Shown: piece by piece, positions 4,658 through 40,174 of the stretch | Layout: the number at the start of each line of letters is the position of its first letter | Numbering within the stretch: position 1 is the first letter of the stretch | Source of the DNA: Chloroflexota bacterium | GTDB taxonomy: Bacteria > Chloroflexota > UBA11872 | Assembly (NCBI GenBank): GCA_965208215.1 | Contig: CBDBOH010000003.1 | Coordinates: 1,470,880-1,534,879 of the forward strand | Length of the DNA stretch: 64,000 bases | Direction: 5' to 3' | Notes under the pieces: model-generated | The model's input: the letters and a program-made list of their open reading frames with translations, nothing else | Told to the model about the DNA's origin: nothing | Database searches by the model: none | Translations under genes and position numbers: made by a program

Positions 4658-4915
4658 ATGCGAACGACAATCTCGCTCGACGATCAGCTGGCCCGGCAAG
4701 TGCGTCGTGCGGCAGCAGCCCGCGACATGAGCGTGAGCGCCTTTATTTCCAAGACGCTGGACGACGCGCTGAAACGCCACGACCCGTCTGAGCCGCCGCC
4801 TTTCCGCCTGATAACCGTGCGTGGCGTTCGACCCCGTCCCGGAGTCGATCTGGACCGGCCGAGGGCGCTCGATGCTCGGGAGGACGAGGCCAGGTTCACG
4901 CGCGGGCGTGGGTGA
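4658..4915 (+). CDS. vapB: ribbon-helix-helix/VapB-type antitoxin
   Basis: 85-aa ORF, MRTTISLDDQLARQVRRAAAARDMSVSAFISKTLDDAL (RHH/CopG-like). Immediately precedes a PIN gene. AT-rich leader with GTTATGC direct repeats upstream. Confidence 0.6.
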   Translation: MRTTISLDDQLARQVRRAAAARDMSVSAFISKTLDDALKRHDPSEPPPFRLITVRGVRPRPGVDLDRPRALDAREDEARFTRGRG

Positions 4916-4921
4916 CGCCAG

Positions 4922-5365
4922 TTGCTGCTTCCCGACGTCAATGTCCTGATTTACGCGCACATCGAGGACTCGACTCCCGACCACGCTGAGTACGCGAGCT
5001 GGATCACCCGTCTGGCGACAGGGCCCGAACCGTTCGCCCTTTCCGTTCTGGTCTTGTCCGGATTCATTCGCGTCGTGACCAATCCCCGAGTCTTCAGCCC
5101 GTCGTCGACTCTCGATCAGTCATTCGGGTTCGTCACGGCACTCGTGGAACGCCCAACCGCGCGGATTGTGGGCCCGGGTCCAGATCATCTGGAAATCTTC
5201 GAACGACTGTGCCGTGCGTCCGGCGCCACCGGAAAGCTGGTCGCCGACGCTCAGCACGCGGCGGTTGCCGTGGAACATGGGTGCACTATGGTGACGACCG
5301 ATTCGGATTTCAGCCGATTCCCCGGACTGCGATGGAAGCATCCACTGGGCCCAGACGGGGTCTAG
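4922..5365 (+). CDS. vapC: PIN-domain ribonuclease toxin, VapC family
   Basis: MLLPDVNVLIYAH...TTDSDF motifs; TTG start 7 nt after vapB stop. Confidence 0.75.
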   Translation: MLLPDVNVLIYAHIEDSTPDHAEYASWITRLATGPEPFALSVLVLSGFIRVVTNPRVFSPSSTLDQSFGFVTALVERPTARIVGPGPDHLEIFERLCRASGATGKLVADAQHAAVAVEHGCTMVTTDSDFSRFPGLRWKHPLGPDGV

Positions 5366-5425
5366 ATCCCGTCTGCTCGAACTGTGCCTGACCGTCGATC
5401 ACGCCTGACGCGCCCGATCAATCCC

Positions 5426-5635
5426 ATGCCGGGTTCGGTCGAGAGCGCTCTCGAGGAGGCTGGCCTGATGGAGGCCTACCAGGCCCGCCCGCCGTACCAG
5501 CGGAACGACTACCTGGGCTGGATTGATCGGGCCAAGCGACCCGAGACGAAAGCCCGCCGGCTGCGACAGATGCTTGACGAACTGGAGCAGGGCGACGTGT
5601 ACATGAAGATGGCGTGGAGCGCAGGGAGGCGGTAG
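5426..5635 (+). CDS. YdeI/OmpD-associated family protein (short form)
   Basis: [30 protein letters not shown] resembles YdeI C-terminal region. Start taken at internal ATG 5426 of listed ORF 5384..5635. Confidence 0.4.
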
Positions 5636-5672
5636 CAGACGCGCCCGCATCGCCTACGATGTATTTGTGGTA

Positions 5673-5969
5673 ATGAAGAATCCTCCGCATCCGGGACGCA
5701 GCATCCAGTTGACGTGCCTTGAGCCGTTGGGCCTTAGCGTGACGGATGCTGCTAAGGGCCTGGGGGTGGCGCGGCACACGCTATCGCGCGTGTTAAACGG
5801 ACACGCGGGGATATCGGCTGAAATGGCGATTCGACTCGAGAAGGCCGGCTGGTCGAATGCCGAGTTCTGGCTGCGTCTCCAGGCCGCCTACGACCTGGCG
5901 CAAGCTCGCCGGCGGCAGGACCAGATCAGGGTGGAAGCTTCGTTGCTTGAGGCCCGGCCAGCGGGCTGA
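5673..5969 (+). CDS. higA: HigA-family addiction-module antidote (XRE HTH), apparently orphan
   Basis: [12 protein letters not shown]...[56 protein letters not shown] matches HigA antidote pattern. No RelE/HigB-like ORF found upstream. Confidence 0.7.
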
Positions 5970-6163: not shown

Positions 6164-9100
6164 ATGATGCGCACCCGTCTGCCAGTGCGTGCTCAATGGC
6201 GCAGCCTGCCGAGGGCGCTGGGGCCGTTGGTTGGGGCCGTGTGCCTTGGGCTGGTCGCGGTTCTGCAGCCCGTGGCGCAGGCGCAGGGGCCCAGTCCCGG
6301 TCCGGCGCTGCTTCCGACGGCGGCGGTCGAGCCTCCGAGGCCGGACCAGCGGTTCGTGACCGTGAGCAGCGGCAATTTCCATACGTGCGCCCTCCAGGCG
6401 AATGGCGAAGTCCTGTGTTGGGGGGCCGAGCCGCCTGGTGAGACGGCTGACGTCGGACCAGTTGGCTTCGGCCAGGCGTTGCCGCCAGCCGGCGAACGCT
6501 TCGTGGCCATCAGCAGCGGCGGCTTTCACACCTGCGGCCTGCGGGACGACGGAAGCGCGGCGTGCTGGGGCGCCGATCCGGGCGGCCAGTCCGAGGACCT
6601 GGGGCAGGTGGGCTTCGGCCAGACCTCGCCGCCGAATGGCGAGGCCTTTACCGCCATTAGCAGTGGCGGTACGCACACGTGCGGGCTGCGTGGGGATGGC
6701 TCGGTGGCCTGCTGGGGGAACGACGAGTCCGGCCAGGCCTCGCCGCCCGACGAGGAGCGGTTCACGGTGATCACCAGCGGCGCGAATCACTCCTGTGGCG
6801 TTCGCGAGGACGGAACCGTCGTCTGTTGGGGGCCGGAGCCGGGTCCTGGTCCGTTCGGAGGCTGGGAAGCTCCCCCGGAAGCCGCCTTCGGGTCGATCGA
6901 CGGGGCCCACGGCTATACGTGCGGCGTGCCGCTGGAAGGCCCGCCGTTCTGCTGGGGGAGCTATTCGGAGACTCCCAATCTCGCGAGGTATCCGCCGCCG
7001 GATCTTTGGCTCATCGCCGTTAGCGGCGGCGGGGGGCACGCCTGCGGGCTCCGGAAGGACGGAATGCCGGTGTGCTGGGGGGATCTGCCGGACAGCCCGC
7101 CGCCGGGGCAGCGCTTCGCGTCGCTCAGCAGCGGGATGGGGCACACCTGCGGGCTACGCGCCGACGACGGCACGGTGGCCTGCTGGGGCGACGATTCGTA
7201 TGGGCAGGCGTCCCCGCCCGAAGGTGCGCGGTACCTGGGTTCCGAGCCCGTCCCGCCCGATCCCTACGATCCTGGGGCGCCGCTGGTGGCGCTGAGCAGC
7301 GGCGGTGGACACGTCTGCGGTATCACCAATGAAGGCTTCGCCTGGTGCGCAGGCAACGACCATTACGGTCAGGCATCGCCGCCGCCCGGTGTGAAGTTCG
7401 CCTCCATCAGCAGCGGCTCGTTTCACACCTGCGGCATTCGCCTGGATGGCGTGGCCGTTTGCTGGGGGGATGACGAGGACGGTGAGTCCTCGCCGCCGGC
7501 AGGCGAGCGGTTCGTCTCAATCAGCAGCAGCGCCGGCCGTACCTGCGCCCTCCGGGAAGACGGTACGCCTGTCTGCTGGGGCCGCGAGAGCGCCGAAGAA
7601 ACGGCGGCGGTGGCGGCCGAGCAATTCAGCGCTATCAGTGCCGGCTGGGGCCACGCCTGTGCGTTGCGGGCGGACGGCACGGCCGTCTGCTGGGGGAGTA
7701 ACTGGGGAGGTCAGGCCACGCCGCCTGAGGATCAGAGGTTCACGGCCATCAGCACTGGCTGGGACCACACCTGCGCCTTGCGCGAGGACGGCGCAGCCGT
7801 CTGCTGGGGCCGCGATCAGTACGGCCAGGCGTCCCCGCCGGAGCACGAGCGCTTCGTGGATATCAGCACGAACACTTACCACACCTGCGCGCTGAGAGAA
7901 GACGGTACGCCCGTATGTTGGGGCGCAGCCGATCCCTGGGGGGACTACGGCCAGGCGTCCCCCCGTCCAGGGGATCGGTTTGTGTCGGTGAGCAGTGGCG
8001 ACAACTTCACCTGCGGCCTGCGGGCGGACGGCACCTACGGGTGCTGGCGCTTCGGCCCCGCGAATCTCGGGTTCGACCTCGACACCGTCGGCCGCGAGGG
8101 ATTCCGGGCGGTGCGCGATCAAGCGCTGACTGCCGTGAGCAGCGGCAACCGGCATACCTGCGCGATTGGTGCGGACGGCACGCTGCGGTGCTGGGGACTG
8201 AATGACTACGGTCAGGCCACGCCTCCCGCGGAGGGGACCTTCATCGCGGTCAGCAGCGGAGGGCGACATACGTGCGCCCTGCGCGACAACGGTGAGGCGA
8301 TCTGCTGGGGCGATGAGGCGGACGGCCGGACCCAGCCGCCGGCCGACGATCGGTTCGTCGCGATCAGCAGTGGATGGGCCCATACCTGTGCGCTGCGTGA
8401 GGACGGGTCGGCCGCTTGCTGGGGCAGGGACCATAACGGCCAGGCCGCACCGCCAGCGGACGAACGCTTCAGCGCCGTCAGTAGCGGGCTCACGCACACG
8501 TGCGCGCTGCGCCAGGATGGGTCGGCGGTGTGCTGGGGCCAAGACTACGACGGCCAAGCCTCGGCGCCGGAAGGCGCTCGGTTTGCCGCCATCAGCAGTG
8601 GCTCGGATTACACCTGCGCCCTGTACGAGGACGGCAGCCCGTTCTGCTGGGGCGATCCGGATGACGAGACGTCGACGCCGCCATATGTCGAGCGCTTCGT
8701 CGCGATCAGCACCGGCCCGGATCACGCGTGCGGACTGCGCGCCGACGGCACGCCGGTCTGCTGGGGCGAACGAAACGCGGTTGCTCCGCCCGACGTGCGC
8801 TTCGGTGCAATCAGCATCGGCGCGGTGCATACCTGCGCGCTGCGTACGGACGGCCGTCCCATCTGCTGGGGCACTGGCTTCCAGACACCGACCGAGTCGG
8901 CCAAGCGCTCGGAATTCGAGACGGTCAGCGTTCAGAGCTTCGTCGCCATCAGCAGTGGCTACGGGCACGTCTGCGCGCTGCGCGAGGACGGGTCGGTTGT
9001 CTGCTGGGGCTCGAGCGGAGCAGGGAAGACCGCGGCGCCGCAGGGCGAGACGTTCTCCTCGCTGACCAGCGGCGGCGATCACACGTGCGGGTTGCGTGCG

Positions 9101-12100
9101 GACGGCGTGGCCGTCTGCTGGGGCTACAACGAGCAGGGCCAGGCGTCGCCGCCGGAGGACGAGCGGTTTACGGCGCTCACCAGCGGCAGCTCTCACACCT
9201 GCGGGCTGCGTAGCGACGGCGCCGCGATCTGCTGGGGGAGCGACGACTACGGTCAGGCGTCGCCGCCCGAGGGCGTGCAGTTCACGGGGCTGAGCGCCGG
9301 CGAGCGCCACACCTGCGGCGTGCGCACCGATGGCCTGGCGATCTGCTGGGGAGACGACGAGCATGGCAAATCGACGCCATCCCAGGCCGAGAAATTTGTT
9401 GCCGTTAGTAGCGGCGAGGAGCACACCTGCGCGCTGCGCGCCGACGGCACCCCGGTCTGCTGGGGGATGGCCGGGAGCGTGACGTCACCGCCGCACGGCG
9501 TGGCGTTTACCGCGCTGAGCAGCGGCCACCAGCACACGTGTGGATTGCAGGCGGACGGGACGCCGGTCTGCTGGGGCTCAAACGCCGGCGGTTATGAAAC
9601 CCCTGGCGGGAGAGCCCTGGCGCCGCACGGCGAGCATCTCAGTGCGGTGAGCGGTGGCGGTGACTTCACGTGCGGCCTTCGCACTGACGGGACGCCGGTC
9701 TGCTGGGGCGGACGCTTCGAGTCCGGCGCGCCGCGCTATGCGCCTATCGCCGGCGGCCCGTTCGTTGCGGTCAGTAGCGGGGAGTTGCATACCTGCGCGC
9801 TGCGTGACGACGGGACGCCGGTCTGCTGGGGCGACGACACGCACGGTCAGGCGTCGCCCCCGGCGGACGCACGCTTCGTGGCCCTGAGCAGCGGCGAGCA
9901 ACACACCTGCGGGCTACTCGAGGATGGAGGGGCGGTGTGTTGGGGATCGAATCGAAACGGGCGGTCAACGCCGCCGGTCGATGAGCAGTTCGAGTTCCTT
10001 AGTAGCGGCTCAAGCCACAGTTGCGCGTTGAGGGCGGATGGATCCGCGGCGTGCTGGGGGCGCAACGACCAGGGGCAGGCCTCGCCACCAGAGGCCGAAT
10101 CGTTTGTGGCGATTGGCAGCGGCGGCGAGCATACTTGCGGCTTACGCGATGACGGATCCACCCTCTGCTGGGGCGCGGAAGACCGATCCAGCAGCTGGGG
10201 CAAGCTGTGGCCGCCTGAGCACGAGCGCTTTGTCGCCCTCAGTGTCGGGCCGGACCATACCTGTGCGCTGCGGGCGGACGGCACGCTCTGGTGCAGTACC
10301 GATTTCGATCAGTGGTCCGGGGTGTTCGAGGGCGAGCGGTTTGTGGCCATTAGCAGCGCCCGCGAGCGTTTGTGCGGCCTTCGGGACGACGGTTCGGTCG
10401 CCTGCTATGGCGACTTTCGTATCTACCTTCCGGTCAATCAGCCGTTCGTGTCGCTCAGCAGCGGGGCTCGGCACACCTGTGGGCTGCGCGAGGACGGCGC
10501 CATCCTGTGTTGGGGTCAGAACAACCGGGGCCAGGCGTCGCTCGAGAAGCCATACCGAACCGCTCTATCTGGTGAGCGATTCACATCCATCACAAGTGGA
10601 GGCCGCTACGCCTGCGCACTTCGCCAGGACGGGTCGCCCGTGTGCTGGGTGGCGCCCGACTCCAGGTGGTCCTCGCCCGACGACATTCCGGTGCCGCCGG
10701 ATGAGCAGCTGACGTCCATTAGCGGCGGGTCCGGGTACGTCTGTGGCCTCCGCCAGGACGGGTCGCCCGTGTGCTGGGGACGAGACTGGAACGGTCGAGC
10801 CGTGCCGCCGGAAGGCGAAGTGTTTGGGGCCACTAGTGCCGGCTCCGGGCATACCTGCGCGCTGCGTCCGGACGGCACGCCTGTGTGCTGGGGGAGAAAC
10901 GACGACGGTTCCGGTCGGCACGCCGGCGGGGCGTTGCCGCCGGCTGGCGAGCGCTTTACGACCATCAGCGTGGGCGCCTTCCACACCTGCGCCCTGCGCG
11001 AGGACGGAACCCCGGTGTGCTGGGGCAGTAACGAGGACGGGCGCGGGAATCCGGTTGGCCAGGCCTCGCCTCCGAGCGGCGAGCGATTTACGACCATCAC
11101 CAGTGCATCGCTTCACACGTGCGCCTTGCGCGAGGATGGGACGGCCGTCTGCTGGGGTGAGAACCACGACGGCCGGTCATCGCCACCGGACAACGAGTCG
11201 TTCATCGCGATCGACAGCGGCGCCGAACACACCTGCGGTATCCGCGCCGACGGTTCGGCCGTCTGCTGGGGGCAGGACTGGAACGGCCAGGCCTCGGCGC
11301 CCGCGGGCGAGACCTTTGCAGCCATCGGCAGTGGGCAGGATTTCAGCTGCGCCCTGCGCCAGAACGGAACCGCGACGTGCTGGGGCGAGGGATACCCCCG
11401 CCCGCCCGATGTGACACCGCCATACACCCCGCCAGCCCCGCCGCTGCCCAGCCCGCTGCCTGAATTCGTGGCCGTCACTTGCGGCAGCTTCCATACCTGT
11501 GCGCTCAGCGTGGACGGTCAGGCGATTTGCTGGGGCGGCTGGTCCGTAAATCGGCCGGTGTGGCCGCCGGAGGGTGAGCGGTTTATCGCGCTCAGTGGCG
11601 GGTGGAGTCACACGTGTGGGCTACGCGAGGACGGAACGGCCGTGTGCTGGGGTGTAGGCGTGGCCGTCGCCGAGTCGCCACCCACCGGCGAGAAGTTCAC
11701 CGCGCTGAGCAGCGGCTCGAGCCACACCTGCGGCTTGCGCGACGACGGGACCGCTGTGTGTTGGGGCTTCGACGACGACGGTCGAGCCGCGCCGCCGGCC
11801 GGCGAGCGGTTCACGATGCTCAGCAGTGGCGGCGCTCACACTTGCGGGCTACGCGCCGATGGGACCGCGGTCTGCTGGGGACGCGACGACGAAGGCCAGG
11901 CCTCGCCGCCCGCCGACGAGCGCTTTACGGCAATTGCCAGCGGCGGCGACCACACGTGCGGCTTGCGCGACGATGGGACCGTCCGCTGCTGGGGCGACAA
12001 GTCGGCCCCTCACGCGACGCCGCCGGTGGGCGAGACCTTTGTGGCCATCAGCAGCGACGACCACCGAACTTGTGGGCTGCGTAGCGACGGAACCGTGCTG

Positions 12101-12259
12101 TGCTGGGGATCCTTCCGACAGGGCGAAGACACGTCGCCCGACGACGTGCGGGTCACCACCATCAGCCTGGGTCGCGCACACACCTGTGGACTGGGCGCGG
12201 ACGGAACCGTCGCTTGCTGGGGGTCCGATGACGAGGGCCAGGTGTGGCCGCCGCGATGA
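6164..12259 (+). CDS. giant secreted RCC1-repeat (beta-propeller) protein, about 40 blades
   Basis: 2031-aa ORF with N-terminal signal peptide MMRTRLPVRAQWRSLPRALGPLVGAVCLGLVAVLQPVAQAQG. About 40 repeats of roughly 50 aa, F.AISSG..HTCGLR.DG.AVCWG....GQASPP.GERF. Two conserved Cys per repeat. Confidence 0.85.
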   Translation: MMRTRLPVRAQWRSLPRALGPLVGAVCLGLVAVLQPVAQAQGPSPGPALLPTAAVEPPRPDQRFVTVSSGNFHTCALQANGEVLCWGAEPPGETADVGPVGFGQALPPAGERFVAISSGGFHTCGLRDDGSAACWGADPGGQSEDLGQVGFGQTSPPNGEAFTAISSGGTHTCGLRGDGSVACWGNDESGQASPPDEERFTVITSGANHSCGVREDGTVVCWGPEPGPGPFGGWEAPPEAAFGSIDGAHGYTCGVPLEGPPFCWGSYSETPNLARYPPPDLWLIAVSGGGGHACGLRKDGMPVCWGDLPDSPPPGQRFASLSSGMGHTCGLRADDGTVACWGDDSYGQASPPEGARYLGSEPVPPDPYDPGAPLVALSSGGGHVCGITNEGFAWCAGNDHYGQASPPPGVKFASISSGSFHTCGIRLDGVAVCWGDDEDGESSPPAGERFVSISSSAGRTCALREDGTPVCWGRESAEETAAVAAEQFSAISAGWGHACALRADGTAVCWGSNWGGQATPPEDQRFTAISTGWDHTCALREDGAAVCWGRDQYGQASPPEHERFVDISTNTYHTCALREDGTPVCWGAADPWGDYGQASPRPGDRFVSVSSGDNFTCGLRADGTYGCWRFGPANLGFDLDTVGREGFRAVRDQALTAVSSGNRHTCAIGADGTLRCWGLNDYGQATPPAEGTFIAVSSGGRHTCALRDNGEAICWGDEADGRTQPPADDRFVAISSGWAHTCALREDGSAACWGRDHNGQAAPPADERFSAVSSGLTHTCALRQDGSAVCWGQDYDGQASAPEGARFAAISSGSDYTCALYEDGSPFCWGDPDDETSTPPYVERFVAISTGPDHACGLRADGTPVCWGERNAVAPPDVRFGAISIGAVHTCALRTDGRPICWGTGFQTPTESAKRSEFETVSVQSFVAISSGYGHVCALREDGSVVCWGSSGAGKTAAPQGETFSSLTSGGDHTCGLRADGVAVCWGYNEQGQASPPEDERFTALTSGSSHTCGLRSDGAAICWGSDDYGQASPPEGVQFTGLSAGERHTCGVRTDGLAICWGDDEHGKSTPSQAEKFVAVSSGEEHTCALRADGTPVCWGMAGSVTSPPHGVAFTALSSGHQHTCGLQADGTPVCWGSNAGGYETPGGRALAPHGEHLSAVSGGGDFTCGLRTDGTPVCWGGRFESGAPRYAPIAGGPFVAVSSGELHTCALRDDGTPVCWGDDTHGQASPPADARFVALSSGEQHTCGLLEDGGAVCWGSNRNGRSTPPVDEQFEFLSSGSSHSCALRADGSAACWGRNDQGQASPPEAESFVAIGSGGEHTCGLRDDGSTLCWGAEDRSSSWGKLWPPEHERFVALSVGPDHTCALRADGTLWCSTDFDQWSGVFEGERFVAISSARERLCGLRDDGSVACYGDFRIYLPVNQPFVSLSSGARHTCGLREDGAILCWGQNNRGQASLEKPYRTALSGERFTSITSGGRYACALRQDGSPVCWVAPDSRWSSPDDIPVPPDEQLTSISGGSGYVCGLRQDGSPVCWGRDWNGRAVPPEGEVFGATSAGSGHTCALRPDGTPVCWGRNDDGSGRHAGGALPPAGERFTTISVGAFHTCALREDGTPVCWGSNEDGRGNPVGQASPPSGERFTTITSASLHTCALREDGTAVCWGENHDGRSSPPDNESFIAIDSGAEHTCGIRADGSAVCWGQDWNGQASAPAGETFAAIGSGQDFSCALRQNGTATCWGEGYPRPPDVTPPYTPPAPPLPSPLPEFVAVTCGSFHTCALSVDGQAICWGGWSVNRPVWPPEGERFIALSGGWSHTCGLREDGTAVCWGVGVAVAESPPTGEKFTALSSGSSHTCGLRDDGTAVCWGFDDDGRAAPPAGERFTMLSSGGAHTCGLRADGTAVCWGRDDEGQASPPADERFTAIASGGDHTCGLRDDGTVRCWGDKSAPHATPPVGETFVAISSDDHRTCGLRSDGTVLCWGSFRQGEDTSPDDVRVTTISLGRAHTCGLGADGTVACWGSDDEGQVWPPR
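6330..12200 (+). repeat. nucleotide-level tandem repeats (about 150-nt period) encoding RCC1 blades
   Basis: Repeated codon blocks for HTCGLR/VCWG/GQASPP throughout the gene. They generate long GC-rich shadow ORFs on the opposite strand, e.g. 7517..9424 (-). Confidence 0.7.
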
Positions 12260-12450
12260 GATTGGAGAACGTACAGATGGTTGGCCGGACAGTCAGCCGC
12301 TTTGCCGCTCAGCGGGCGGGCCGGCGACTCTTGTCGTCTTGTTCGGCGCCAGCGACTCGACTGATTTCAGGCCTTCGTCGGTCGCGCGGCAGATCGAGGC
12401 CATTGCCCGGACGGCTGCAACCTGTCACCGCAAGACGTAGGTTCCAGGCT

Positions 12451-15400
12451 GTGGCGGCGCCATGGTTTTTCGTCGCGCTGGCCGCGCTGCTGGTGGCGCT
12501 CGGTGTGAGCCTCACGACCCGGCCGGTGCAGGCGCACAGCCGTACTCCGCCGTGCGAGAGTTTCGGTCTCCGCGGCGTTCACGTGATGAATGCCCGGAAC
12601 TCGGTGCAGTGGACGCCGGGCGGCTCCGAACTGCTTTTCATCCACCACGACCAGCTCTACCAGGCGACCGCAGACGGGACGCGCGTGCAAGGCACGTTTG
12701 AGGTTCCATACGAGGCCCACATCGAGTCGCGGTCGTATATCAAGGTCTACCTGTCCCACGCCGACGTCTCCCCTGACGGAAGCCGGGTGGCGTACTCGGT
12801 CTGCTGGGACTCCTTTACGTTCTGGGACAGCCCGCCAAGGGAACCGCCGGACGAGGAGTCTCGCGCGGTCGACGTTCCGATCACCACCGTGTTCTTCGAA
12901 GTCGCCGTCTGGGATGCGACCACCGACGAGGTGGACTACCTGGCCGTTGGCAGCGTGCCCGTGTGGTCGCCCGACGGCACCCGCATTGCGTTCTTGTCCG
13001 ACTACAACTACGCCGACCCGCCGGCCGACAGCCGGGCACGCGTCGAGGCCGACCCGGGGCTCTTCAGCATGGCCGCGGACGGCTCCGACATCCAACGCCT
13101 GGCGCCGGCGGACCATGGGGACGTCGGCCTTCCGCCCCGCTGGTCGCCGGACGGGCAACTCCTGGCCTTTGTGCGTGGCGTGGGTTCGGCGGAGCAGGCG
13201 GTGTACACGGTGGGCGCCGACGGCTCCAATCCCAGGCGGATCTCGGCGGCGGCCAGTCTTCCCTCCTGGTCCCCCGACGGCGAGCGGCTGGCGCTGGCGT
13301 TGCCGGACGGCGAAGAGGTGGCGTTGTACACCATCGCGGCGGACGGTTCGGACCCGCGGCGGCTGACGACGATCGATGGCTGGCAGAGCCAGGGGTGGAA
13401 TGAAGATTGGTACGCGGAAGATCCGTCGGTTGCCTGGATTGAGACGGTGGCCTGGTCGCCGGATGGATCGAAGATTCTTTTTACGTGTGGATGGGCGTCG
13501 GTCTGCGTGGTCGACGTGGATGGGAATCCCGTTGGAACATCGCCGGAGAACCTGGGGGAGCTACACGGACCTGTCTGGTCGCCCGACGGAGCGCGAATCG
13601 CGATTGGCATTGGCGCTGAAGTCGACCCCTATTCGCGGAGAGTGCCCGAGATTCTCTACACGATGAGGCCCGATGGCTCCGACCTACAGGTCCTTGTGAC
13701 CCTGGGCGTCGGGCTGGTGGCCGAGAGCGTCAGAGCGGCCGACCTTGCGACGCGGCGTGCGGCCTGCGACGGCGGCTACGTAGTCCCCGAGCCCGGTGCG
13801 AATCCCGGCCTGGTGGGCGACTGCCAGACGCTGATGAATCTGCGTGATTGGCTGTTCGGCGGCGTGGCCACGAACTGGAATGCCGGGACGCCGATCGACG
13901 AGTGGGTGGGGCTAACCGTCGAGGGCTCGCCGCGGCGGGTGACGGGGCTGAGGGTGGGAAGCGGCAGATACGGCGATGCCGTGACCGCGGGGATCATCCC
14001 GCCCGAAGTCGCCGACCTGCCCAAGCTGCGGACGCTCGAGCTTGCCGGCAACCAGATATCGGGGAACATCCCGCCGGAACTCGGTGAACTCGCCGAGTTG
14101 GAGACGCTGGATGTCGCCCACAACCAACTCTCGGGGTGGATTCCAGCAGAGCTCGGCGATCTGGGCTCGCTGCGGAGCCTGAACCTGGCCGGCAACCGGC
14201 TGTACGGGGAGATCCCACCGGAACTGGGCCAGCTGACGAGCCTTGAACTCCTGGATCTTGCCGGGAACGATCTGAGCGGCGAGATTCCAGCGGAGCTGGG
14301 CGACCTTGCCAGCCTGCAGCGGCTTCTCCTGCGGGAAAACGAGTTCGGCGGGAGAATTCCAGGGGCGTTGGGCCAACTTGCCGCCCTGGTGGCGCTGGAC
14401 CTCGCGGAGAGTGGCGTCACCGGAGGTATTCCCCCCGAGATCGGCGCTCTGGCCGGGCTGGAGACGCTGGATCTCTCCAACAATGAGCTGACGGGCGACA
14501 TTCCACCCGAACTGGGCGGGCTGCGAAACCTGACGGAGTTGAATCTCGGCCAGAACCACCTGACGGGCCTGATCCCCTGGGAACTGGGCTGGCTGACGAA
14601 GCTCACGAACCTGCAGTTCGGGGGCAACCAGCTCACCGGGCGAGTCCCAGTGGCCCTGGGGTCCATGTACGACCTGTGGTCGCTGGGGCTGTGGGGCAAT
14701 CAACTGGAGGAGTGTCTGCCGTTCCACTTGAACAGACGCGAGCCGCCGTACATCAACCCGCGCGAGTGGGCGACCTGCGAGCTGGGCTCGTACGCCTTCA
14801 ACATTCGGGACGACGCGTTGCTCGGCGCCAGCGTGGGCAGGGTGTATATCCCCGGCCGGCTGGCGGACACGCTCAGCTATGTGATCGCGGGAGGCAACGA
14901 GGGCGGGGCGTTTGCCATCGACGCCAGCAGCGGCCGGATTACCGTTGCCAGCGAACTGGATGCTTCAGCAGTCGATGCCTATGCGCTGACGGTCGCGGCG
15001 AGTGATGGAATCGGCGACCTGGTACACGTGGAGATCCGGGTCAATCCAGCGCCGTCGCCGCCGACCTGTGCCAGCGGAATCGCCGTGCCGAATCCGCAGG
15101 ACAATCCGGGGCTGGTGAACGACTGCCGGATCCTGCTCGAAGCGCGGGAAGTTCTGGTCGGCCGGACCTGGCTGAATTGGAGCGCCGAGGCGCCGATGGA
15201 GCAGTGGGAGGCGATCGAACTCGGCGGCACGCCGCGGCGCGTCCTGGCGCTGGAGATTCGAGGGCCCCACGGGGGCAGGCGCATCCCGCCCGAGCTTGGA
15301 GGCCTGAGCGCTCTGCAGCGACTGGTGCTCTTTAACAACCGATTGTGGGGCACCATACCGAGCGAGCTTGGCCAACTGAGCGAGTTGCGCGAACTCGATC

Positions 15401-15651
15401 TGTCGAATAACGCCTTCTCGGAAGCGATACCGCCGGAACTGGGTCAGCTTGCCAACCTGACGCACCTGAACCTCTTCGTCAATCGACTAACCGGGCAGGT
15501 TCCAGCGGAACTCGGACAGCTGACGAATCTGCGGGAATTGCACCTCGGCCTGAACCACTACCTGACCCAGTGCCTGCCGGCCGACCTGGCGGCGCGAGCG
15601 CGTGAGGGCGTCGTGTTGCCGGACTGGCCGACGTGTGACGAAGGTGGCTAG
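12451..15651 (+). CDS. secreted multidomain protein: PD40/TolB-like beta-propeller, LRR block (plant-type 24-aa LRRs), cadherin-like domain, second LRR block
   Basis: WSPDG repeats (VWSPDGTRIAF, RWSPDGQLLAF, SWSPDGERLAL, AWSPDGSKILF, VWSPDGARIAI). LRRs L..L..L.L..N.L.G.IP.ELG.L. Cadherin-like YVIAGGNEGGAFAIDASSGRITVASELDASAVDAYALTVAASDG. In-frame GTG 12451 gives signal peptide M-AAPWFFVALAALLVALGVSLTTRPVQAHS; start uncertain (listed ORF begins 12244). Confidence 0.75.
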   Translation: MAAPWFFVALAALLVALGVSLTTRPVQAHSRTPPCESFGLRGVHVMNARNSVQWTPGGSELLFIHHDQLYQATADGTRVQGTFEVPYEAHIESRSYIKVYLSHADVSPDGSRVAYSVCWDSFTFWDSPPREPPDEESRAVDVPITTVFFEVAVWDATTDEVDYLAVGSVPVWSPDGTRIAFLSDYNYADPPADSRARVEADPGLFSMAADGSDIQRLAPADHGDVGLPPRWSPDGQLLAFVRGVGSAEQAVYTVGADGSNPRRISAAASLPSWSPDGERLALALPDGEEVALYTIAADGSDPRRLTTIDGWQSQGWNEDWYAEDPSVAWIETVAWSPDGSKILFTCGWASVCVVDVDGNPVGTSPENLGELHGPVWSPDGARIAIGIGAEVDPYSRRVPEILYTMRPDGSDLQVLVTLGVGLVAESVRAADLATRRAACDGGYVVPEPGANPGLVGDCQTLMNLRDWLFGGVATNWNAGTPIDEWVGLTVEGSPRRVTGLRVGSGRYGDAVTAGIIPPEVADLPKLRTLELAGNQISGNIPPELGELAELETLDVAHNQLSGWIPAELGDLGSLRSLNLAGNRLYGEIPPELGQLTSLELLDLAGNDLSGEIPAELGDLASLQRLLLRENEFGGRIPGALGQLAALVALDLAESGVTGGIPPEIGALAGLETLDLSNNELTGDIPPELGGLRNLTELNLGQNHLTGLIPWELGWLTKLTNLQFGGNQLTGRVPVALGSMYDLWSLGLWGNQLEECLPFHLNRREPPYINPREWATCELGSYAFNIRDDALLGASVGRVYIPGRLADTLSYVIAGGNEGGAFAIDASSGRITVASELDASAVDAYALTVAASDGIGDLVHVEIRVNPAPSPPTCASGIAVPNPQDNPGLVNDCRILLEAREVLVGRTWLNWSAEAPMEQWEAIELGGTPRRVLALEIRGPHGGRRIPPELGGLSALQRLVLFNNRLWGTIPSELGQLSELRELDLSNNAFSEAIPPELGQLANLTHLNLFVNRLTGQVPAELGQLTNLRELHLGLNHYLTQCLPADLAARAREGVVLPDWPTCDEGG

Positions 15652-15806
15652 GCCGTGGACGCGCCGCCAAACTCAACAACGCTAAGCGACCTGCTGAGAG
15701 GGTCGGGCCAAGTATTGGTTGGGCATGGCTGCGCTTCGCCCAATGGCTCGCTGGGAGCGTCGTCGCTGGCGGACGGGCCGTGTCCGGCGGTCGCGGAAGG
15801 CCTGGC

Positions 15807-18800
15807 ATGGCCAGACTGATTGGGCTGGGCCTCGCGGTCGGACTCCTGGTGGCGGTCACCGTGCTGCCGGTGCGGGCGCTCGAGTGCGGTGCGGAGGTCG
15901 GCGTTCCGTTGGACGACGGCTGCGTGTTCACAATCACTGGCAGCGACACCCCGGACCCGGCCGATGGGTTTGCGGTATCCAATGCGGTTGACGTTCCGCT
16001 GTGGGATTTCGTTCGGGCGAGGGATCTGCAGGCGATCGGGTATCCCATCAGTCAGCGGTGGATCGAGGGTCCGTTCACGCTGCAGGCGTTCCAAAAGGTC
16101 ATCCTGCAATGGGACCCGGGTCGCCGGCAGATGAACTACTACAACACGCTGGATGCGCTGGCGAATCGGTATCCGCAGGTGGCGCTGCCGAACGTGCCGA
16201 TCCACGAGGTGCTGGCGGCGGACTTTGGAGCCGATTTCGCCACGGTCACGCAAAACCACCTGGCGATCCTGGATCGAAACTCGAAGATACGGGCGCGGTT
16301 TCTGGCCGAGCCTGACTGGCTGAATCTATACGGGCTCCCGATTCGGTACGAGGCTCGGGAGGTCGACGGGAATCCGGAGGGCCTGCAAATCCTGCGGACG
16401 CAACGGGCGGTATTTGTGATTTGGAACGTCCCGGCGCCTGGGACGACGGTCGGGCAGGTGCTGCTGCAGAACGTGCCGGACAAAGTGAAGCAACTGACCA
16501 ACGTGATCATTCCGGACGCGGCCAAGGCGCCGGTTCGACCCGAAGCCGTCGAAGACCTCCCACGCTTTACATTGACGGTGCAGCCGACGTCGCTGGCTAG
16601 CAACGGGCCGACGAATCTAGAGGCTTGTGCCGGCGGCGCCGTGGTCCCAAACCCTGGATTGCAGCCTGAATTGGTACGGGACTGCCTGATTCTCTTGCAG
16701 ATCCGCGATGCGTTGGTGGCGAGTGGGTCGCTGAACTGGGCTACAGATCGGCCGATCAACGAGTGGCAAGGGATCGTCCTGGGTGGCTCGCCGACTAGGG
16801 TCCGGACGTTATCGATAAACGGTGGTGAGCGCGGCGGGACGATCCCGGCCGAGATCGGCGGACTGACCGGGCTGCATACGCTTCAAATTCGAGGCAACGC
16901 ATCGATTGGGGCGATTCCACCCGAGCTTGGACATCTGTTGAGTCTGGGAGCACTCGATTTCTCGAACAACCAGCTCTCCGGGACGATACCCCCGCTGATC
17001 GGACGCCTGGCCAATCTGCAGCACCTCAACCTGGGTCACAACCGACTATCAGGGTCGATCCCGCAGGAGTTGGGACAACTGGGTTCCTTGCAGGTTCTGC
17101 ACCTTTACAACAACCAGCTTACGGGTGAGATTCCGATACAGCTGGGTCGGCTCGCTGCCCTGACATGGCTTGGGCTCGGCAGGAACGATCTGGCGGGCGG
17201 GATTCCGGCGGAGCTTGGGCAACTGAGCCGCCTGCAAACGCTCAAGCTCGATAGCAATCCTCTTGGCGGCACCATCCCGATCGCGCTTACTCGGCTGGCC
17301 GACCTGACGGAGCTCGATCTGAGAGGAACCAGGCTGACTGGTGGAATCCCGTCTGAGGTGGGCAAATTGGCAAGTCTTCGTACGCTTGACCTCGGCGAAA
17401 ATCAGTTGACCGGCCCGATTCCGGCGACCCTCGGCCAGCTGTCAAATCTGCAGATACTGCAACTTCAGTACAACCCACTGAATGCCGAGATTCCACGCGA
17501 GCTAGGCCGTCTGCGCAGGTTGGAGAAGCTGGTGTTTACCGGAAGCCAGCTGACCGGGCAGATTCCAGATGAACTGGGACAACTAGAGAATCTGAAAGAG
17601 CTCAGTCTCGGGGTCAACAAGCTAACGGGTGCGATTCCGACATCGCTCGGCGGCCTGACAGCGCTCGAGACACTTCGTGCCGGCAACAATCAGTTGTCGG
17701 GACCGATTCCTGTCGCGATCGGCGGACTACAGAATCTCAGGGAACTAGCGCTTGGCACCAATCGGCTTAGCGGCCCAATACCTTCTGGACTTGCAGGGCT
17801 CTCACAGTTACAGCAACTTGATCTCAGCGGAAACAGCCTCACCGGTTTGATTCCAACGGAGCTCAGCCGCCTGGCGGCGTTGACGGGTATTCACCTTGGC
17901 GGCAATGGGCTGACTGGTTCGATTCCGGCGTCGCTTGGCGAGCTGGCAAAGCTGCGAGAGCTGAGCCTGGGTGGTAATCAGCTTACGGGTTCGATTCCGC
18001 CAACGCTTGGTTATCTGGCGAGGCTCGAGTCGCTGGGTCTCGGAAGCAATGCACTGTCCGGCGCGATCCCGGGAGATCTAGGGCGACTTGCCAACTTGCG
18101 CGAATTAGACCTTACGTTCAACCAGTTGAGTGGCCCAATACCGGCGGCCCTTGGCCAGCTTTCGGGTCTTGAATGGCTAGGGCTCAGAGGCAATCGGTTG
18201 TCGGGCTGCCTGCCGGCGGACTTGGCTAGCGTGCGAACGCGAGATATTGGTCCTCCAGAGCATCCCTTCTGCCACGCCCAGGCAACGCCTGATACGGATC
18301 TTGGGCAAGGCCCGACGCTTCAACCCAGCGTAGATGCAGCCGACAATGGTGCTTGCACGAACGGTCGGGTCGTGCCGCAGCCGCAGGCGAATCCGGGCCT
18401 GGTTCGTGACTGCAAGATCTTGTTCGCGGCTCGCGACACGCTGGCCGGGGGCGCCGATCTGAACTGGGGTGCTGATCGCACCATTGCCAAGTGGGACGGC
18501 GTGGTTCTGGGCGGCTCGCCGCCACGGGTTCACGAGCTTGCGCTGTCAACCGTGGGACTTTCAGGCTCGATTCCAGTTGTCATTGGAGAACTCAGGGCAT
18601 TGACGCGGCTGGATCTGAGCCAGAACCGCATCACGGGTCCGATTCCGGCTCAGCTTGGACAGTTAGTGAGACTTACGGAACTCCACCTCAATTCCAACGA
18701 GCTATCCGGCCACATTCCGGTAGAACTGACAGGACTGTCCGAGCTTCAACTTCTGTACCTCTTCGGCAACTCGCTGACCGGTCGGATTCCAACTGAGTTG

Positions 18801-19574
18801 AGCCAACTGTCAAAATTGAAATTCATGTACTTGGGCTTCAACAGTCTAAGCGGTCCAATCCCCATGGAATTGGGCCATTTATCGAACCTGGTAGAACTCT
18901 CCTTGCGAGTCAACCCATTGGAAGGATCGATCCCGGCGTCGCTTGGCAATCTGCACAACCTTGAGGCTCTGCACCTGTCAGAAAGCGGGCTATCAGGTAC
19001 TATACCTGCCGAACTTGGTCAGCTTCATAAGCTTCGCGAGATGTGGCTAGGAGAAAACCATTTGTCTGGATCAATACCAGCTGAATTAGGACGTCTTGCC
19101 AGTCTATATCACCTGTATCTGGATGGGAATCAACTTGAAGGAACGATTCCTATGGAGTTGGGCAATCTCTCCAGCTTACGGGAACTGCATCTGCTCAGTA
19201 ATCATATCTCAGGCGAGATTCCGGCGGCACTTGGCCAACTCGCTAGCTTGGAGAGTCTCAATCTGGGCTCCAATCAGTTGACGGGATCCATTCCGGTGAG
19301 TCTCGGCCAGCTGTCAAACCTAGACAGCCTCCGCCTTCAGTACAACCGGTTGTCCGGGTCCATTCCAGTCTCGCTGGGACAATTGTCCAACCTCACGCTC
19401 CTCAACCTTGAGCACAACAACCTGTCGGGGACGATTCCTGGAGAAGTTGGACGCCTGAGTGGCCTGTGGATAGTTCACCTGGGTGGTAACCAGCTGTCCG
19501 GGTGCATTCCCGCCCATTGGCGAGACCTCCCGCACAATGATCTGCATACTCTCGGCCTGTCGTATTGCTCGTGA
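15807..19574 (+). CDS. giant secreted leucine-rich-repeat protein (about 56 plant-type LRRs in two capped blocks)
   Basis: Signal peptide MARLIGLGLAVGLLVAVTVLPVRA. N-terminal domain of about 250 aa, then two blocks of 24-aa LRRs (L..L..L.L..N.LSG.IP..LG.L..L). Each block is preceded by a Cys-containing cap C..G.VVPNP..NPGLV.DC..LL..RD.L.G...LNW....PI..W.GV.LGGSP.RV..L. Confidence 0.8.
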   Translation: MARLIGLGLAVGLLVAVTVLPVRALECGAEVGVPLDDGCVFTITGSDTPDPADGFAVSNAVDVPLWDFVRARDLQAIGYPISQRWIEGPFTLQAFQKVILQWDPGRRQMNYYNTLDALANRYPQVALPNVPIHEVLAADFGADFATVTQNHLAILDRNSKIRARFLAEPDWLNLYGLPIRYEAREVDGNPEGLQILRTQRAVFVIWNVPAPGTTVGQVLLQNVPDKVKQLTNVIIPDAAKAPVRPEAVEDLPRFTLTVQPTSLASNGPTNLEACAGGAVVPNPGLQPELVRDCLILLQIRDALVASGSLNWATDRPINEWQGIVLGGSPTRVRTLSINGGERGGTIPAEIGGLTGLHTLQIRGNASIGAIPPELGHLLSLGALDFSNNQLSGTIPPLIGRLANLQHLNLGHNRLSGSIPQELGQLGSLQVLHLYNNQLTGEIPIQLGRLAALTWLGLGRNDLAGGIPAELGQLSRLQTLKLDSNPLGGTIPIALTRLADLTELDLRGTRLTGGIPSEVGKLASLRTLDLGENQLTGPIPATLGQLSNLQILQLQYNPLNAEIPRELGRLRRLEKLVFTGSQLTGQIPDELGQLENLKELSLGVNKLTGAIPTSLGGLTALETLRAGNNQLSGPIPVAIGGLQNLRELALGTNRLSGPIPSGLAGLSQLQQLDLSGNSLTGLIPTELSRLAALTGIHLGGNGLTGSIPASLGELAKLRELSLGGNQLTGSIPPTLGYLARLESLGLGSNALSGAIPGDLGRLANLRELDLTFNQLSGPIPAALGQLSGLEWLGLRGNRLSGCLPADLASVRTRDIGPPEHPFCHAQATPDTDLGQGPTLQPSVDAADNGACTNGRVVPQPQANPGLVRDCKILFAARDTLAGGADLNWGADRTIAKWDGVVLGGSPPRVHELALSTVGLSGSIPVVIGELRALTRLDLSQNRITGPIPAQLGQLVRLTELHLNSNELSGHIPVELTGLSELQLLYLFGNSLTGRIPTELSQLSKLKFMYLGFNSLSGPIPMELGHLSNLVELSLRVNPLEGSIPASLGNLHNLEALHLSESGLSGTIPAELGQLHKLREMWLGENHLSGSIPAELGRLASLYHLYLDGNQLEGTIPMELGNLSSLRELHLLSNHISGEIPAALGQLASLESLNLGSNQLTGSIPVSLGQLSNLDSLRLQYNRLSGSIPVSLGQLSNLTLLNLEHNNLSGTIPGEVGRLSGLWIVHLGGNQLSGCIPAHWRDLPHNDLHTLGLSYCS

Positions 19575-30244: not shown

Positions 30245-30251
30245 CCGGCGA

Positions 30252-32015: not shown

Positions 32016-32053
32016 AATTCGGCGCCCCCGCGTCGGGGCAGGACAACTGCTAT

Positions 32054-36500: not shown

Positions 36501-36620
36501 GTTCGGGCGGCCTGCGGCGACGGTGACTGTCCACCTCGCGCCGCGCGGGGTGCGGGTTCGGCCGCCCGAACATCCGGGGTCGGATGTTGCCCTGAACCGG
36601 TCGGGTTCGCCGCTAGTCTG

Positions 36621-39049: not shown

Positions 39050-39111
39050 CAGCGAGGACCGCGCTCCGGATGCACCGTCGGCGGCCTCGCGGGCTTCGTT
39101 GTCCTGCGTGG

Positions 39112-40164: not shown

Positions 40165-40174
40165 GGACTGCCCT

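What the first reader, a model, noticed from the sequence alone, without database searches (positions are those of the whole stretch)
6164..19574. Three consecutive giant secreted repeat proteins (RCC1 propellers, then PD40 propeller + LRR + cadherin-like, then LRR)
Three co-directional genes with short gaps (192 bp and 155 bp) encode roughly 2031, 1070 and 1255 aa proteins:
- All have N-terminal signal peptides.
- Together they carry about 40 RCC1 blades (five to six propellers), a TolB-like propeller, about 70 LRRs and a cadherin-like domain.
- The RCC1 blades carry two conserved Cys (HTCGL / VCWG), consistent with extracytoplasmic disulfides.

The dedication of about 13 kb, the secretion signals and the adhesion-type domain mix suggest a cell-surface binding or recognition apparatus, for adhesion, S-layer-like scaffolding or ligand capture. 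The ensemble may be an operon.
Basis: partly seen in the sequence, partly recalled or inferred. Interest (0 to 1): 0.68.

Follow-up and report, generated by a model that had tools for sequence, protein, structure and literature searches.

The report
Secreted repeat-protein genes, sponge symbiont
Three neighbouring genes of a sponge-dwelling Chloroflexota bacterium encode very large exported binding proteins built from propeller and leucine-rich repeats, a kind of "eukaryote-like" protein already known to be common in sponge symbionts; the one fresh detail is an unannotated domain that probably ties the third protein to the cell wall.

Summary
The three genes are real, intact and under purifying selection (dN/dS about 0.2-0.3).

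- **P1 (6164-12259)** has exactly 49 blades of about 38 aa, arranged as seven 7-bladed propellers. They are of the BLIP-II/CRINKLY4 type, and every blade carries a C-x11-C-W-G cysteine pair.
- **P2 (12451-15651)** consists of a TolB-like PD40 propeller, 11 LRRs, a cadherin-like domain and 5 more LRRs.
- **P3 (15807-19574)** has a signal peptide, an unannotated 220-aa domain, and then 20 + 14 plant-type LRRs.
- The total is about 50 LRRs, not about 70. Pfam LRRNT_2 is not detected.

The locus belongs to sponge-associated Chloroflexota (GTDB class UBA2235, order UBA11872). P1-P2 lie in the same place in at least 12 related genomes. P3 is found in only three genomes, counting the window's own, and its LRR part has foreign-looking codon usage. 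The trio is therefore not a conserved unit.

P3's N-terminal domain folds with high confidence (pLDDT 96). It resembles only the LGFP cell-wall-binding repeats of Corynebacterium MytA. In relatives it carries many different C-terminal modules.

Best reading: these are Sec-exported, disulfide-stabilised binding proteins, with P3 anchored to the wall, probably used in host or matrix interaction. That places them in the known class of eukaryote-like repeat proteins.

The parts
6164..12259 (+). P1: 2031-aa exported protein. It has a signal peptide (aa 1-40), a short Pro-rich linker, then 49 blades forming seven 7-bladed BLIP-II/CRINKLY4-type (RCC1_2) propellers.
   Evidence: Pfam RCC1_2 E=0 and WD40_RLD 7.5e-208. 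Blade parsing gives 49 of 49 blades with both cysteines. PDB sequence search gives BLIP-II 1e-31 and CR4 1e-25. dN/dS is 0.17-0.25.
6347..7276 (+). P1 propeller 1 (aa 62-371)
   Evidence: Blade and linker parsing
7277..8119 (+). P1 propeller 2 (aa 372-652)
8120..8932 (+). P1 propeller 3 (aa 653-923)
   Evidence: closest solved structures are BLIP-II, then CRINKLY4 ectodomains
8933..9754 (+). P1 propeller 4 (aa 924-1197)
9755..10573 (+). P1 propeller 5 (aa 1198-1470)
10574..11458 (+). P1 propeller 6 (aa 1471-1765)
11459..12256 (+). P1 propeller 7 (aa 1766-2031)
12260..12450 (+). P1-P2 spacer. It is about 85% conserved in DNA among relatives but shows no coding signature. Four genomes carry a 72-nt deletion here.
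   Evidence: Alignment. GC by codon position is 0.62/0.66/0.62, and substitutions are not concentrated at third positions.
12451..15651 (+). P2: 1066-aa exported protein with a probable GTG start. The ORF stays open upstream to 12244.
   Evidence: dN/dS is 0.22-0.32.
12538..13758 (+). P2 PD40 (TolB-like) beta-propeller, with seven W-[ST]-P-[DG]-G motifs
   Evidence: Pfam PD40 2e-18 and DPPIV_N 6e-8. PDB: acyl-peptide hydrolase 3e-11, TolB 3e-9.
13765..14778 (+). P2 LRR module 1: two-Cys N-cap, 11 LRRs of 24 aa, two-Cys C-cap
   Evidence: Variation among orthologs concentrates at the x positions of LxxLxLxxN.
14779..15066 (+). P2 cadherin-like domain. It is a single copy, and the C-terminal DxNDN calcium motif reads RVNPAP instead.
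   Evidence: Pfam Cadherin 4.7e-9, 37 bits against a cut-off of 28.8. The motif was read directly.
15067..15648 (+). P2 LRR module 2: N-cap, 5 LRRs, C-cap
15807..19574 (+). P3: 1255-aa exported protein. It is an accessory gene, found in only two of the related loci besides the window.
   Evidence: dN/dS is 0.20-0.23.
15879..16544 (+). P3 N-terminal domain (aa 25-246). It has no Pfam annotation and is LGFP-like, so it is a putative cell-wall-binding anchor.
16626..18296 (+). P3 LRR module 1: N-cap, 20 plant-type LRRs, C-cap
   Evidence: Closest solved structures are plant LRR receptor-kinase ectodomains (GSO1 2e-146).
18354..19571 (+). P3 LRR module 2: N-cap, 14 LRRs, C-cap. GC3 falls as low as 0.56 here.

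Best explanation
The genes encode Sec-exported, disulfide-stabilised, non-enzymatic binding proteins of a sponge-associated Chloroflexota bacterium (class UBA2235, order UBA11872). They belong to the 'eukaryote-like repeat protein' class.

**What each protein is**
- P1 strings together seven distinct 7-bladed propellers of the BLIP-II/CRINKLY4 type. This fold is known to bind proteins on its face. P1 would therefore be a long multivalent binder.
- P2 combines a TolB-like propeller with two LRR solenoids, separated by a cadherin-like spacer.
- P3 is held on the bacterium's own cell wall by an LGFP-like N-terminal domain and displays two plant-type LRR solenoids outwards.

**Inferred function**
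- The proteins bind host (sponge) matrix or surface molecules, or other cells, for attachment, recognition or evasion of uptake.

**Shown versus inferred**
- Shown: gene integrity, domain architecture, purifying selection, synteny, the sponge-symbiont lineage, and the fold of the P3 N-terminal domain.
- Inferred: export, disulfide bonds, wall anchoring and the ligands.
For: **Architecture**
- Each protein has one N-terminal hydrophobic segment with an A-x-A-like site and no other membrane segment.

**Disulfides and fold relatives**
- The Cys pair in every blade aligns with the CRINKLY4 cysteines, which form one disulfide per blade in crystal structures (bioRxiv 10.1101/2020.08.10.245050).
- Every LRR module has paired cysteines in both caps.
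- The closest solved relative of the P1 propellers is BLIP-II, a secreted protein-binding propeller.
- P3's LRRs are closest to plant receptor ectodomains.

**P3 N-terminal domain**
- The model has pLDDT 95.9.
- Weak Pfam LGFP hits occur in 3 of 41 relatives.
- Relatives are fused to Amidase_2, GH5, GH113 and M1 peptidase.

**Selection and lineage**
- dN/dS is 0.17-0.32, against 0.03-0.15 for the flanking fucosidase, SDR and PhyH genes.
- LRR concave-face positions vary most among orthologs.
- All 16 related loci are Chloroflexota MAGs. Two of them are documented sponge MAGs of UBA2235/UBA11872.
- LRR and cadherin proteins are enriched in sponge symbionts (PMC8163846).
Against: - There is no expression, localisation or ligand data.
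- No signal-peptide predictor was run.
- P1 and P2 have no recognisable anchor, so their location after export is unknown.
- Only two of the related MAGs were checked against a publication as sponge-derived.
- P3 is dispensable in most relatives.
- In one relative (L012) the P1 ortholog is split into two ORFs.
Confidence: 0.6

Rival explanations
1. P1 acts as a secreted multivalent enzyme inhibitor. Like BLIP-II, each propeller would block a target enzyme such as a beta-lactamase, a penicillin-binding-protein-like enzyme or a host hydrolase, rather than serving as an adhesin.
For: BLIP-II is the closest solved relative of the P1 propellers (E 1e-31). The seven propellers are only 41-51% identical to each other, so they could have seven different targets.
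Against: The similarity lies in the repeat framework. BLIP-II lacks the blade cysteines, and the conservation of its contact residues was not examined. No target gene is nearby. The conserved partner gene P2 is an LRR/cadherin protein, which fits binding or adhesion better.
Confidence: 0.12
2. The proteins are effectors delivered into host cells that mimic eukaryotic RCC1 or LRR proteins, for example by manipulating Ran GTPase as described for Legionella RCC1-repeat effectors.
For: The repeats are eukaryote-like. The concept is established for intracellular pathogens (PMC7542358, listed, not read in detail).
Against: They have Sec-type signal peptides and about 60 predicted disulfides, which would not survive in host cytosol. 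The blades are short BLIP-II-type units, not canonical 50-60-aa RCC1 blades. No secretion-system genes appeared among the window ORFs scanned. Few sponge symbiont lineages encode such systems (PMC8163846).
Confidence: 0.05
3. They are general envelope or structural proteins (an S-layer-like coat, biofilm matrix or phage shield) unrelated to the host.
For: The proteins are large, acidic, exported and repetitive. P3 has a wall-binding-like anchor. Distant relatives of that domain occur on ordinary exo-enzymes.
Against: P3 is absent from most relatives, and the locus content varies, which is unlike an essential coat. Amino-acid change is 3-5 times faster than in the flanking enzymes. No self-assembly motif was found.
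Confidence: 0.15
4. The genes are decaying or mis-assembled repeat DNA with no function.
For: In L012 the P1 ortholog is split into two ORFs. Many database relatives of the P3 domain look truncated or frameshifted.
Against: The reading frames are intact and keep the same length in many independent assemblies, including complete chromosomes. dN/dS is about 0.2. The repeats are diverged at the DNA level.
Confidence: 0.02

Closest known systems
Eukaryote-like repeat proteins (ELRs/ELPs) of sponge symbionts (Robbins et al. 2021, PMC8163846)
   Same: The lineage is sponge-associated. The proteins carry LRR and cadherin domains, the gene content is variable, and part of P3 has foreign-looking composition suggestive of lateral transfer. 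The presumed role is host association.
   Different: RCC1-type propellers are not among the ELR classes discussed in that paper (no occurrence of 'RCC1'). Here the proteins carry Sec signals, disulfide motifs and, for P3, a putative wall anchor, which gives a concrete export and display route.
BLIP-II (Streptomyces exfoliatus beta-lactamase inhibitory protein II; PDB 1jtd, 3qhy)
   Same: It is a secreted bacterial 7-bladed propeller with short blades, about 40 aa by my reading of the alignment. It is the closest solved structure by sequence (E 1e-31).
   Different: BLIP-II is a single propeller without blade cysteines. P1 has seven propellers in tandem with one Cys pair in each blade. Inhibitor function was not tested.
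CRINKLY4 receptor-kinase ectodomain ('crinkly repeats'; PDB 7a0j, 7a0k)
   Same: The repeats are about 39 aa with a C-x(~10)-CWG motif, seven blades per propeller and one disulfide per blade. The cysteines align with those of P1 (PMC4617170; bioRxiv 10.1101/2020.08.10.245050).
   Different: CRINKLY4 is a plant membrane receptor with a TNFR-like cysteine-rich domain, a transmembrane helix and a kinase. P1 has none of these and is bacterial.
Plant LRR receptor-kinase ectodomains (GSO1, FLS2 and others)
   Same: The 24-residue LxxLxLxxNxL(S/T)GxIPxxLGxLxx repeats are of the same type, the top PDB hits are plant ectodomains (2e-146), and the caps contain cysteines.
   Different: There is no kinase or transmembrane segment. 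The N-cap does not match Pfam LRRNT_2 and has its own motif, C-x4-VP-x-P-x2-(N/Q)P(G/E)LV-x-DC...LNW...W-x-G.
Wall-anchored LRR surface proteins such as Listeria internalins (from general knowledge, not tested here)
   Same: The logic is the same: a signal peptide, an LRR solenoid displayed outwards and a cell-wall attachment module.
   Different: The anchor in P3 is N-terminal and LGFP-like rather than an LPXTG or GW module. The LRRs are of the plant type. No sequence relation was examined.
LGFP-repeat cell-wall-binding domain of C. glutamicum mycoloyltransferase A (PDB 6swz, 6sx4)
   Same: It is the only structural match to the P3 N-terminal domain. Both have units of a helix plus a small antiparallel sheet with a G-(Y/F/L)-P motif. 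Both occur on exported wall-associated enzymes.
   Different: P3 itself gives no Pfam LGFP hit. The relation shows only as weak hits in 3 of 41 relatives. P3 has two units plus extra helices rather than five repeats. The overall superposition is poor (TM 0.29).

Membership tests
RCC1_2 / RCC1-like propeller (Pfam PF13540, PF25390) | Significant match to the family profile, repeated in tandem | tested here: met
   RCC1_2 E=0 with 41 stretches; WD40_RLD 7.5e-208
RCC1_2 / RCC1-like propeller (Pfam PF13540, PF25390) | Seven blades per closed propeller | tested here: inconclusive
   There are 49 blades with longer linkers at every seventh blade, which fits 7x7. No structure of a P1 propeller was predicted.
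CRINKLY4-type 'crinkly repeat' propeller | Repeat of about 39 aa with a C-x(~10)-CWG motif in every blade | tested here: met
   49 of 49 blades have C-x9/10-C-(W)-(G), with a modal period of 38 aa. The cysteines are in register with 7a0k and 7a0j.
CRINKLY4-type 'crinkly repeat' propeller | One disulfide bond per blade | not testable with these tools
   This is inferred from the CR4 crystal structures (bioRxiv 10.1101/2020.08.10.245050). It needs a structure or thiol chemistry.
CRINKLY4 receptor kinase family | TNFR-like cysteine-rich domain, transmembrane helix and kinase domain | tested here: not met
   There are no such Pfam hits and no second hydrophobic segment. P1 is not a CR4 family member.
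BLIP-II | Single secreted propeller that inhibits class A beta-lactamases | not tested
   Only sequence similarity was found (1e-31). The architecture differs (seven propellers, Cys pairs).
PD40 / TolB-like beta-propeller | Match to the PD40 repeat profile and to TolB-type propellers | tested here: met
   PD40 2e-18; TolB and acyl-peptide hydrolase propellers 3e-11 to 1e-8
Plant-specific-type LRR | 24-residue repeat LxxLxLxxNxL(S/T)GxIPxxLGxLxx | tested here: met
   About 50 units are in exact 24-aa register. The best PDB matches are plant LRR-RK ectodomains.
Plant-specific-type LRR | LRRNT_2 N-terminal cap | tested here: not met
   No Pfam hit for the cap segment at E<=10
Cadherin domain (PF00028) | Profile match above the gathering score | tested here: met
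   37 bits against 28.8
Cadherin domain (PF00028) | Calcium-binding motifs between tandem domains (such as DxNDN) | tested here: not met
   There is a single domain, and its C-terminal motif reads RVNPAP (read).
LGFP repeat (PF08310) cell-wall-binding domain | Sequence match to the LGFP profile | tested here: not met
   No hit for P3. Only 3 of 41 relatives match weakly, best E 0.013.
LGFP repeat (PF08310) cell-wall-binding domain | Fold similarity to the solved LGFP domain | tested here: inconclusive
LGFP repeat (PF08310) cell-wall-binding domain | Binding to cell-wall polymers | not testable with these tools
   Needs a pull-down with purified sacculi.
Operon (three-gene unit) | Conserved co-occurrence and order of all three genes | tested here: not met
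   P1-P2 are conserved in at least 12 loci. P3 is present in only L008 and L009. L017 carries only a P3-like gene.
Operon (three-gene unit) | Co-transcription | not testable with these tools
   No convincing terminator or promoter was found. This needs RNA data.

The most novel reading that the evidence does not exclude
The P3 N-terminal domain may define an undescribed, lineage-expanded surface-display system. In this reading a conserved LGFP-like wall anchor (65-85% identical among more than 100 database proteins) serves as a constant 'handle'. Onto it sponge-symbiont Chloroflexota repeatedly graft laterally acquired cargo modules: plant-type LRRs, crinkly-type propellers, acidic DGFDTT repeats and M1-peptidase-like domains. 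The fucosidase-SDR gap would be an insertion hot spot. Together with the 49-blade P1, this would be a polymorphic host-interaction repertoire comparable in logic to variable surface-protein families of pathogens.
Probability: 0.3. Interest if true: 0.65.

Novelty: new member of a known kind. Interest (0 to 1): 0.38.

Why it matters
Sponge symbionts are known to be rich in eukaryote-like repeat proteins. How these proteins reach and stay at the host interface is unclear, because most lineages lack dedicated secretion systems (PMC8163846).

This locus gives a concrete, testable route: Sec export, disulfide stabilisation and, for P3, a putative wall anchor.

It also shows that the disulfide-stapled 'crinkly' blade, described as a unique feature of plant CRINKLY4 ectodomains, occurs 49 times in one bacterial protein.

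The unannotated anchor-like domain has 909 cluster representatives and is a candidate for a new domain family.

Tried and rejected
- **Exact-sequence look-ups.** Look-ups of P1 and P3 in the assembly index found nothing.
- **First structure prediction.** The first prediction of the P3 N-terminal domain used a shallow alignment of close paralogues. It gave pLDDT 45 and was discarded. A diverse alignment solved this.
- **afdb50 fold library.** It was unavailable.
- **Upstream start for P2.** I considered a start at ATG 12256, which overlaps the P1 stop as ATGA. I rejected it because 12259-12450 lacks a coding signature. My first attempt to translate this region in the orthologs used the wrong anchor and is not used.
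- **Other negative searches.**
  - PDB sequence searches with profiles of the P3 domain gave only chance-level hits.
  - Rfam found nothing in the window.
  - The promoter/terminator scan was uninformative.
  - No further copies of these domains occur elsewhere in the window.
- **Literature.** A search for RCC1 in sponge symbionts returned nothing relevant.
- **Searches not run.** I ran no further search on P1 or P2, because the top hits would again be orthologs without taxonomy.


Full report

Yes, with corrections. Three co-directional ORFs occupy 6164-12259, 12244-15651 and 15780-19574. Their translations are unbroken repeat proteins.

Pfam gives these matches:
- P1: RCC1_2 (E=0, 41 stretches) and WD40_RLD.
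- P2: PD40, several LRR families and Cadherin (37 bits alone, cut-off 28.8).
- P3: LRR families only.

The likely starts are ATG 6164, GTG 12451 and ATG 15807. These give products of 2031, 1066 and 1255 aa and gaps of 191 and 155 nt.

The stretch 12259-12450 is open in frame and about 85% conserved among relatives. It nevertheless has no coding signature. GC by codon position is 0.62/0.66/0.62, against a GC3 of about 0.8 in the genes. Substitutions are not concentrated at third positions, and four genomes have a 72-nt deletion there.

Each protein has one hydrophobic segment, at its N-terminus, followed by AQA|Q, VQA|H or VRA|L. None has another membrane segment.

**2. Anatomy of P1**

- P1 has exactly 49 blades with consensus ERFVAISSGxxHTC(G/A)LRxDGTAVCWGxDDDGQASPPxG and a modal period of 38 aa.
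- Both cysteines are present in all 49 blades.
- Longer linkers precede blades 8, 15, 22, 29, 36 and 43. The protein is therefore seven 7-bladed propellers, not five to six.
- The propellers are 41-51% identical to one another. The best DNA-level tandem repeats are 73-74% identical. The array is therefore old and not prone to assembly collapse.

By sequence, the closest solved structure is the secreted Streptomyces propeller BLIP-II (1e-31). The next are the ectodomains of the plant receptor kinases PpCR4 and ACR4 (1e-25).

In those alignments P1's HTC...CWG cysteines are in register with the CR4 cysteines, and BLIP-II lacks them. The CR4 crystal structures show one disulfide per blade. The authors interpreted this as an adaptation to the extracellular environment and called it unique to CRINKLY4 (bioRxiv 10.1101/2020.08.10.245050). 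The C(X~10)CWG 'crinkly repeat' of about 39 aa is described in PMC4617170.

**3. Anatomy of P2 and P3**

P2 has these parts in order:
- A PD40 propeller with seven W-(S/T)-P-(D/G)-G motifs. TolB and acyl-peptide hydrolase propellers are its nearest solved relatives.
- An LRR module of 11 units.
- A single cadherin-like domain, whose usual DxNDN calcium motif reads RVNPAP.
- An LRR module of 5 units.

P3 has, after its N-terminal domain, LRR modules of 20 and 14 units.

- All four LRR modules use a strict 24-residue plant-type repeat.
- Each module starts with its own cap (C-x4-VP-x-P-...-LV-x-DC-...-LNW-...-W-x-G-...-RV-x-L-x-L) and ends with a two-Cys cap.
- The total is about 50 LRRs, not about 70.
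- Pfam LRRNT_2 does not match the cap even at E<=10.
- The nearest solved structures to P3's LRRs are plant receptor ectodomains (GSO1 2e-146, FLS2 8e-129). These score far above the best-scoring bacterial entries in that list, the LIC (Leptospira) LRR proteins.
- Among P2 orthologs the structural positions are nearly invariant. The x positions of LxxLxLxxN, which form the concave face, vary most.

**4. The overlooked domain in P3**

Residues 25-246 of P3 match no Pfam family and no solved structure by sequence.

- A homology search found 126 proteins that are 65-85% identical over this domain but have different C-terminal parts. These parts include LRRs, RCC1_2 blades, acidic DGFDTT repeats, or nothing recognisable.
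- An exhaustive profile search found 909 cluster representatives.
- In the more distant ones the domain sits at either end of the protein. It occurs alongside GH113, GH5, Amidase_2, M1 peptidase, SdrD-B or fn3.

With a diverse alignment AlphaFold2 gave pLDDT 95.9 and pTM 0.90. The structural comparisons were:
- Foldseek independently ranked the same domain first (E 6.5e-3, probability 0.92, but TM only 0.29).
- Three of 41 family members give weak Pfam LGFP hits, best E 0.013. LGFP was the only family matched by more than one member.

The MytA LGFP domains bind the peptidoglycan-arabinogalactan wall, as summarised in PMC11299179.

I therefore read the P3 N-terminal domain as a divergent LGFP-like wall-binding module. 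This is an inference of moderate strength.

**5. Where it comes from and how it evolves**

A scan of species-representative genomes with P2 returned 16 loci, all Chloroflexota MAGs. Two of them, COS2_bin_4 and RHO2_bin_72, are listed in the supplement of Robbins et al. 2021. There they are recorded as MAGs from the sponges Coscinoderma matthewsi and Rhopaloeides odorabile, GTDB c__UBA2235; o__UBA11872.

Synteny shows the following.
- The order fucosidase, small toxin-antitoxin-like genes, P1, P2, SDR is conserved in at least 12 genomes.
- P3 lies between P2 and SDR only in L008 and L009.
- In most genomes P2 abuts SDR directly.
- In L001 and L004 that slot holds a fucosidase fragment plus a higA-like gene. 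L013 has the higA-like gene there.
- One metagenome contig (L017, low coverage) has only a P3-like gene between higA and SDR and no P1-P2.

The three genes are therefore not one conserved unit, and the site is a hot spot for rearrangement.

Pairwise dN/dS against the orthologs:

| Gene | dN/dS |
|---|---|
| P1 | 0.17-0.25 |
| P2 | 0.22-0.32 |
| P3 | 0.20-0.23 |
| Fucosidase | 0.03-0.07 |
| SDR | 0.05-0.15 |
| PhyH | 0.03-0.12 |

The genes are thus under purifying selection but change 3-5 times faster in protein sequence than the neighbouring enzymes.

- P1 aligns over 2031 aa without gaps in six genomes, including complete chromosomes. This rules out mis-assembly.
- In the more distant L012 the P1 ortholog is split into two ORFs.
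- The LRR-coding part of P3 has GC3 0.56-0.71, while its N-terminal domain has 0.80, the value typical of this locus. The pattern recurs in L008 and L009. This suggests a foreign LRR cargo fused to a resident anchor.

**6. Mechanism**

- *Shown:* intact genes under constraint, the domain architectures, the lineage, the variable presence of P3 and the fold of its N-terminal domain.
- *Inferred from sequence and from named precedents:* Sec export, one disulfide per blade and per LRR cap, and wall anchoring of P3.
- *Inferred from context only:* that the ligands are sponge matrix or cell-surface molecules, and that the role is attachment, recognition or avoidance of uptake. This is the role generally proposed for eukaryote-like repeat proteins, which are enriched in sponge symbionts together with cadherin-domain proteins (PMC8163846).

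That paper notes that few sponge symbiont lineages have specialised secretion systems. Signal peptides plus a wall anchor give a simple alternative route.

The rivals are a BLIP-II-like inhibitor, an intracellular effector, a structural coat, and decay. They are weighed in the rival section of this report, and none is favoured.

**7. Comparison and novelty**

All repeat families here are known, and the general class is known. I file the locus as a new member of a known kind.

The features not found in the papers I consulted are:
- the 7x7 architecture of disulfide-motif 'crinkly' blades in a bacterium;
- the unannotated LGFP-like domain used as a constant N-terminal handle for varied cargo in this lineage.

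The second deserves follow-up as a candidate domain family and display system.

**8. Verdict**

Interest is moderate to low (0.38).

Noticed in passing
window 4659-5969: A string of small genes lies just upstream of P1. By direct reading they are a VapB-like antitoxin, a PIN/VapC-like toxin, a YdeI/OmdA-like gene and a HigA-like antitoxin. The vapBC pair is found in only one relative (L008), and ydeI and higA vary between genomes.
   Followed up: partly
window 16400-19574; L008 and L009 P3 orthologs: The LRR-coding part of P3 has GC3 0.56-0.71, against 0.80 for its N-terminal domain and for P1 and P2. The same drop occurs in both orthologs, which suggests laterally acquired LRR cargo.
   Followed up: partly
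L001 and L004 about 13260-14180; L013 about 2185-2470: In L001 and L004 the slot between P2 and SDR holds a fragment of the fucosidase gene (aa 293-337) plus a higA-like gene. These are copies of genes that normally sit upstream of P1, which hints at recombination between duplicated flanks. L013 shows the higA-like gene there.
   Followed up: no
L017 4418-6750: A low-coverage metagenome contig has only a shorter, apparently frameshifted P3-like gene between higA and SDR. P1 and P2 are absent.
   Followed up: partly
L012 3562-9788: In a more distant complete chromosome the P1 ortholog is split into two overlapping ORFs of 1519 and 660 aa. This is either a frameshift pseudogene or a sequencing error.
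   Followed up: no
window 12260-12450: The P1-P2 spacer is about 85% conserved across genomes without a coding signature, and the P1 stop overlaps an ATG (ATGA) in all orthologs. Four genomes delete 72 nt of it. Its function, if any, is unknown, and there is no Rfam match.
   Followed up: partly
proteins P0016, P0025, P0034, P0049 (relatives of the P3 N-terminal domain): Some family members carry long acidic tandem repeats such as DGFDTT(A/G)NTD(R/H/N) after the conserved N-terminal domain. These might bind calcium. There is no Pfam match.
   Followed up: no
window about 28700-45000, minus strand: This stretch looks like a cell-envelope glycan cluster. It contains a TMEM260-like O-mannosyltransferase, a glycosyl hydrolase, DUF4012, a GT2, a Wzy_C O-antigen ligase-like protein, an epimerase, a GT4 and an ABC ATPase.
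   Followed up: no
window 3189-4397 (-): A GH29 alpha-L-fucosidase is 95-98% identical across all relatives (dN/dS 0.03-0.07). This enzyme family is reported as enriched in sponge symbionts (PMC8163846).
   Followed up: no
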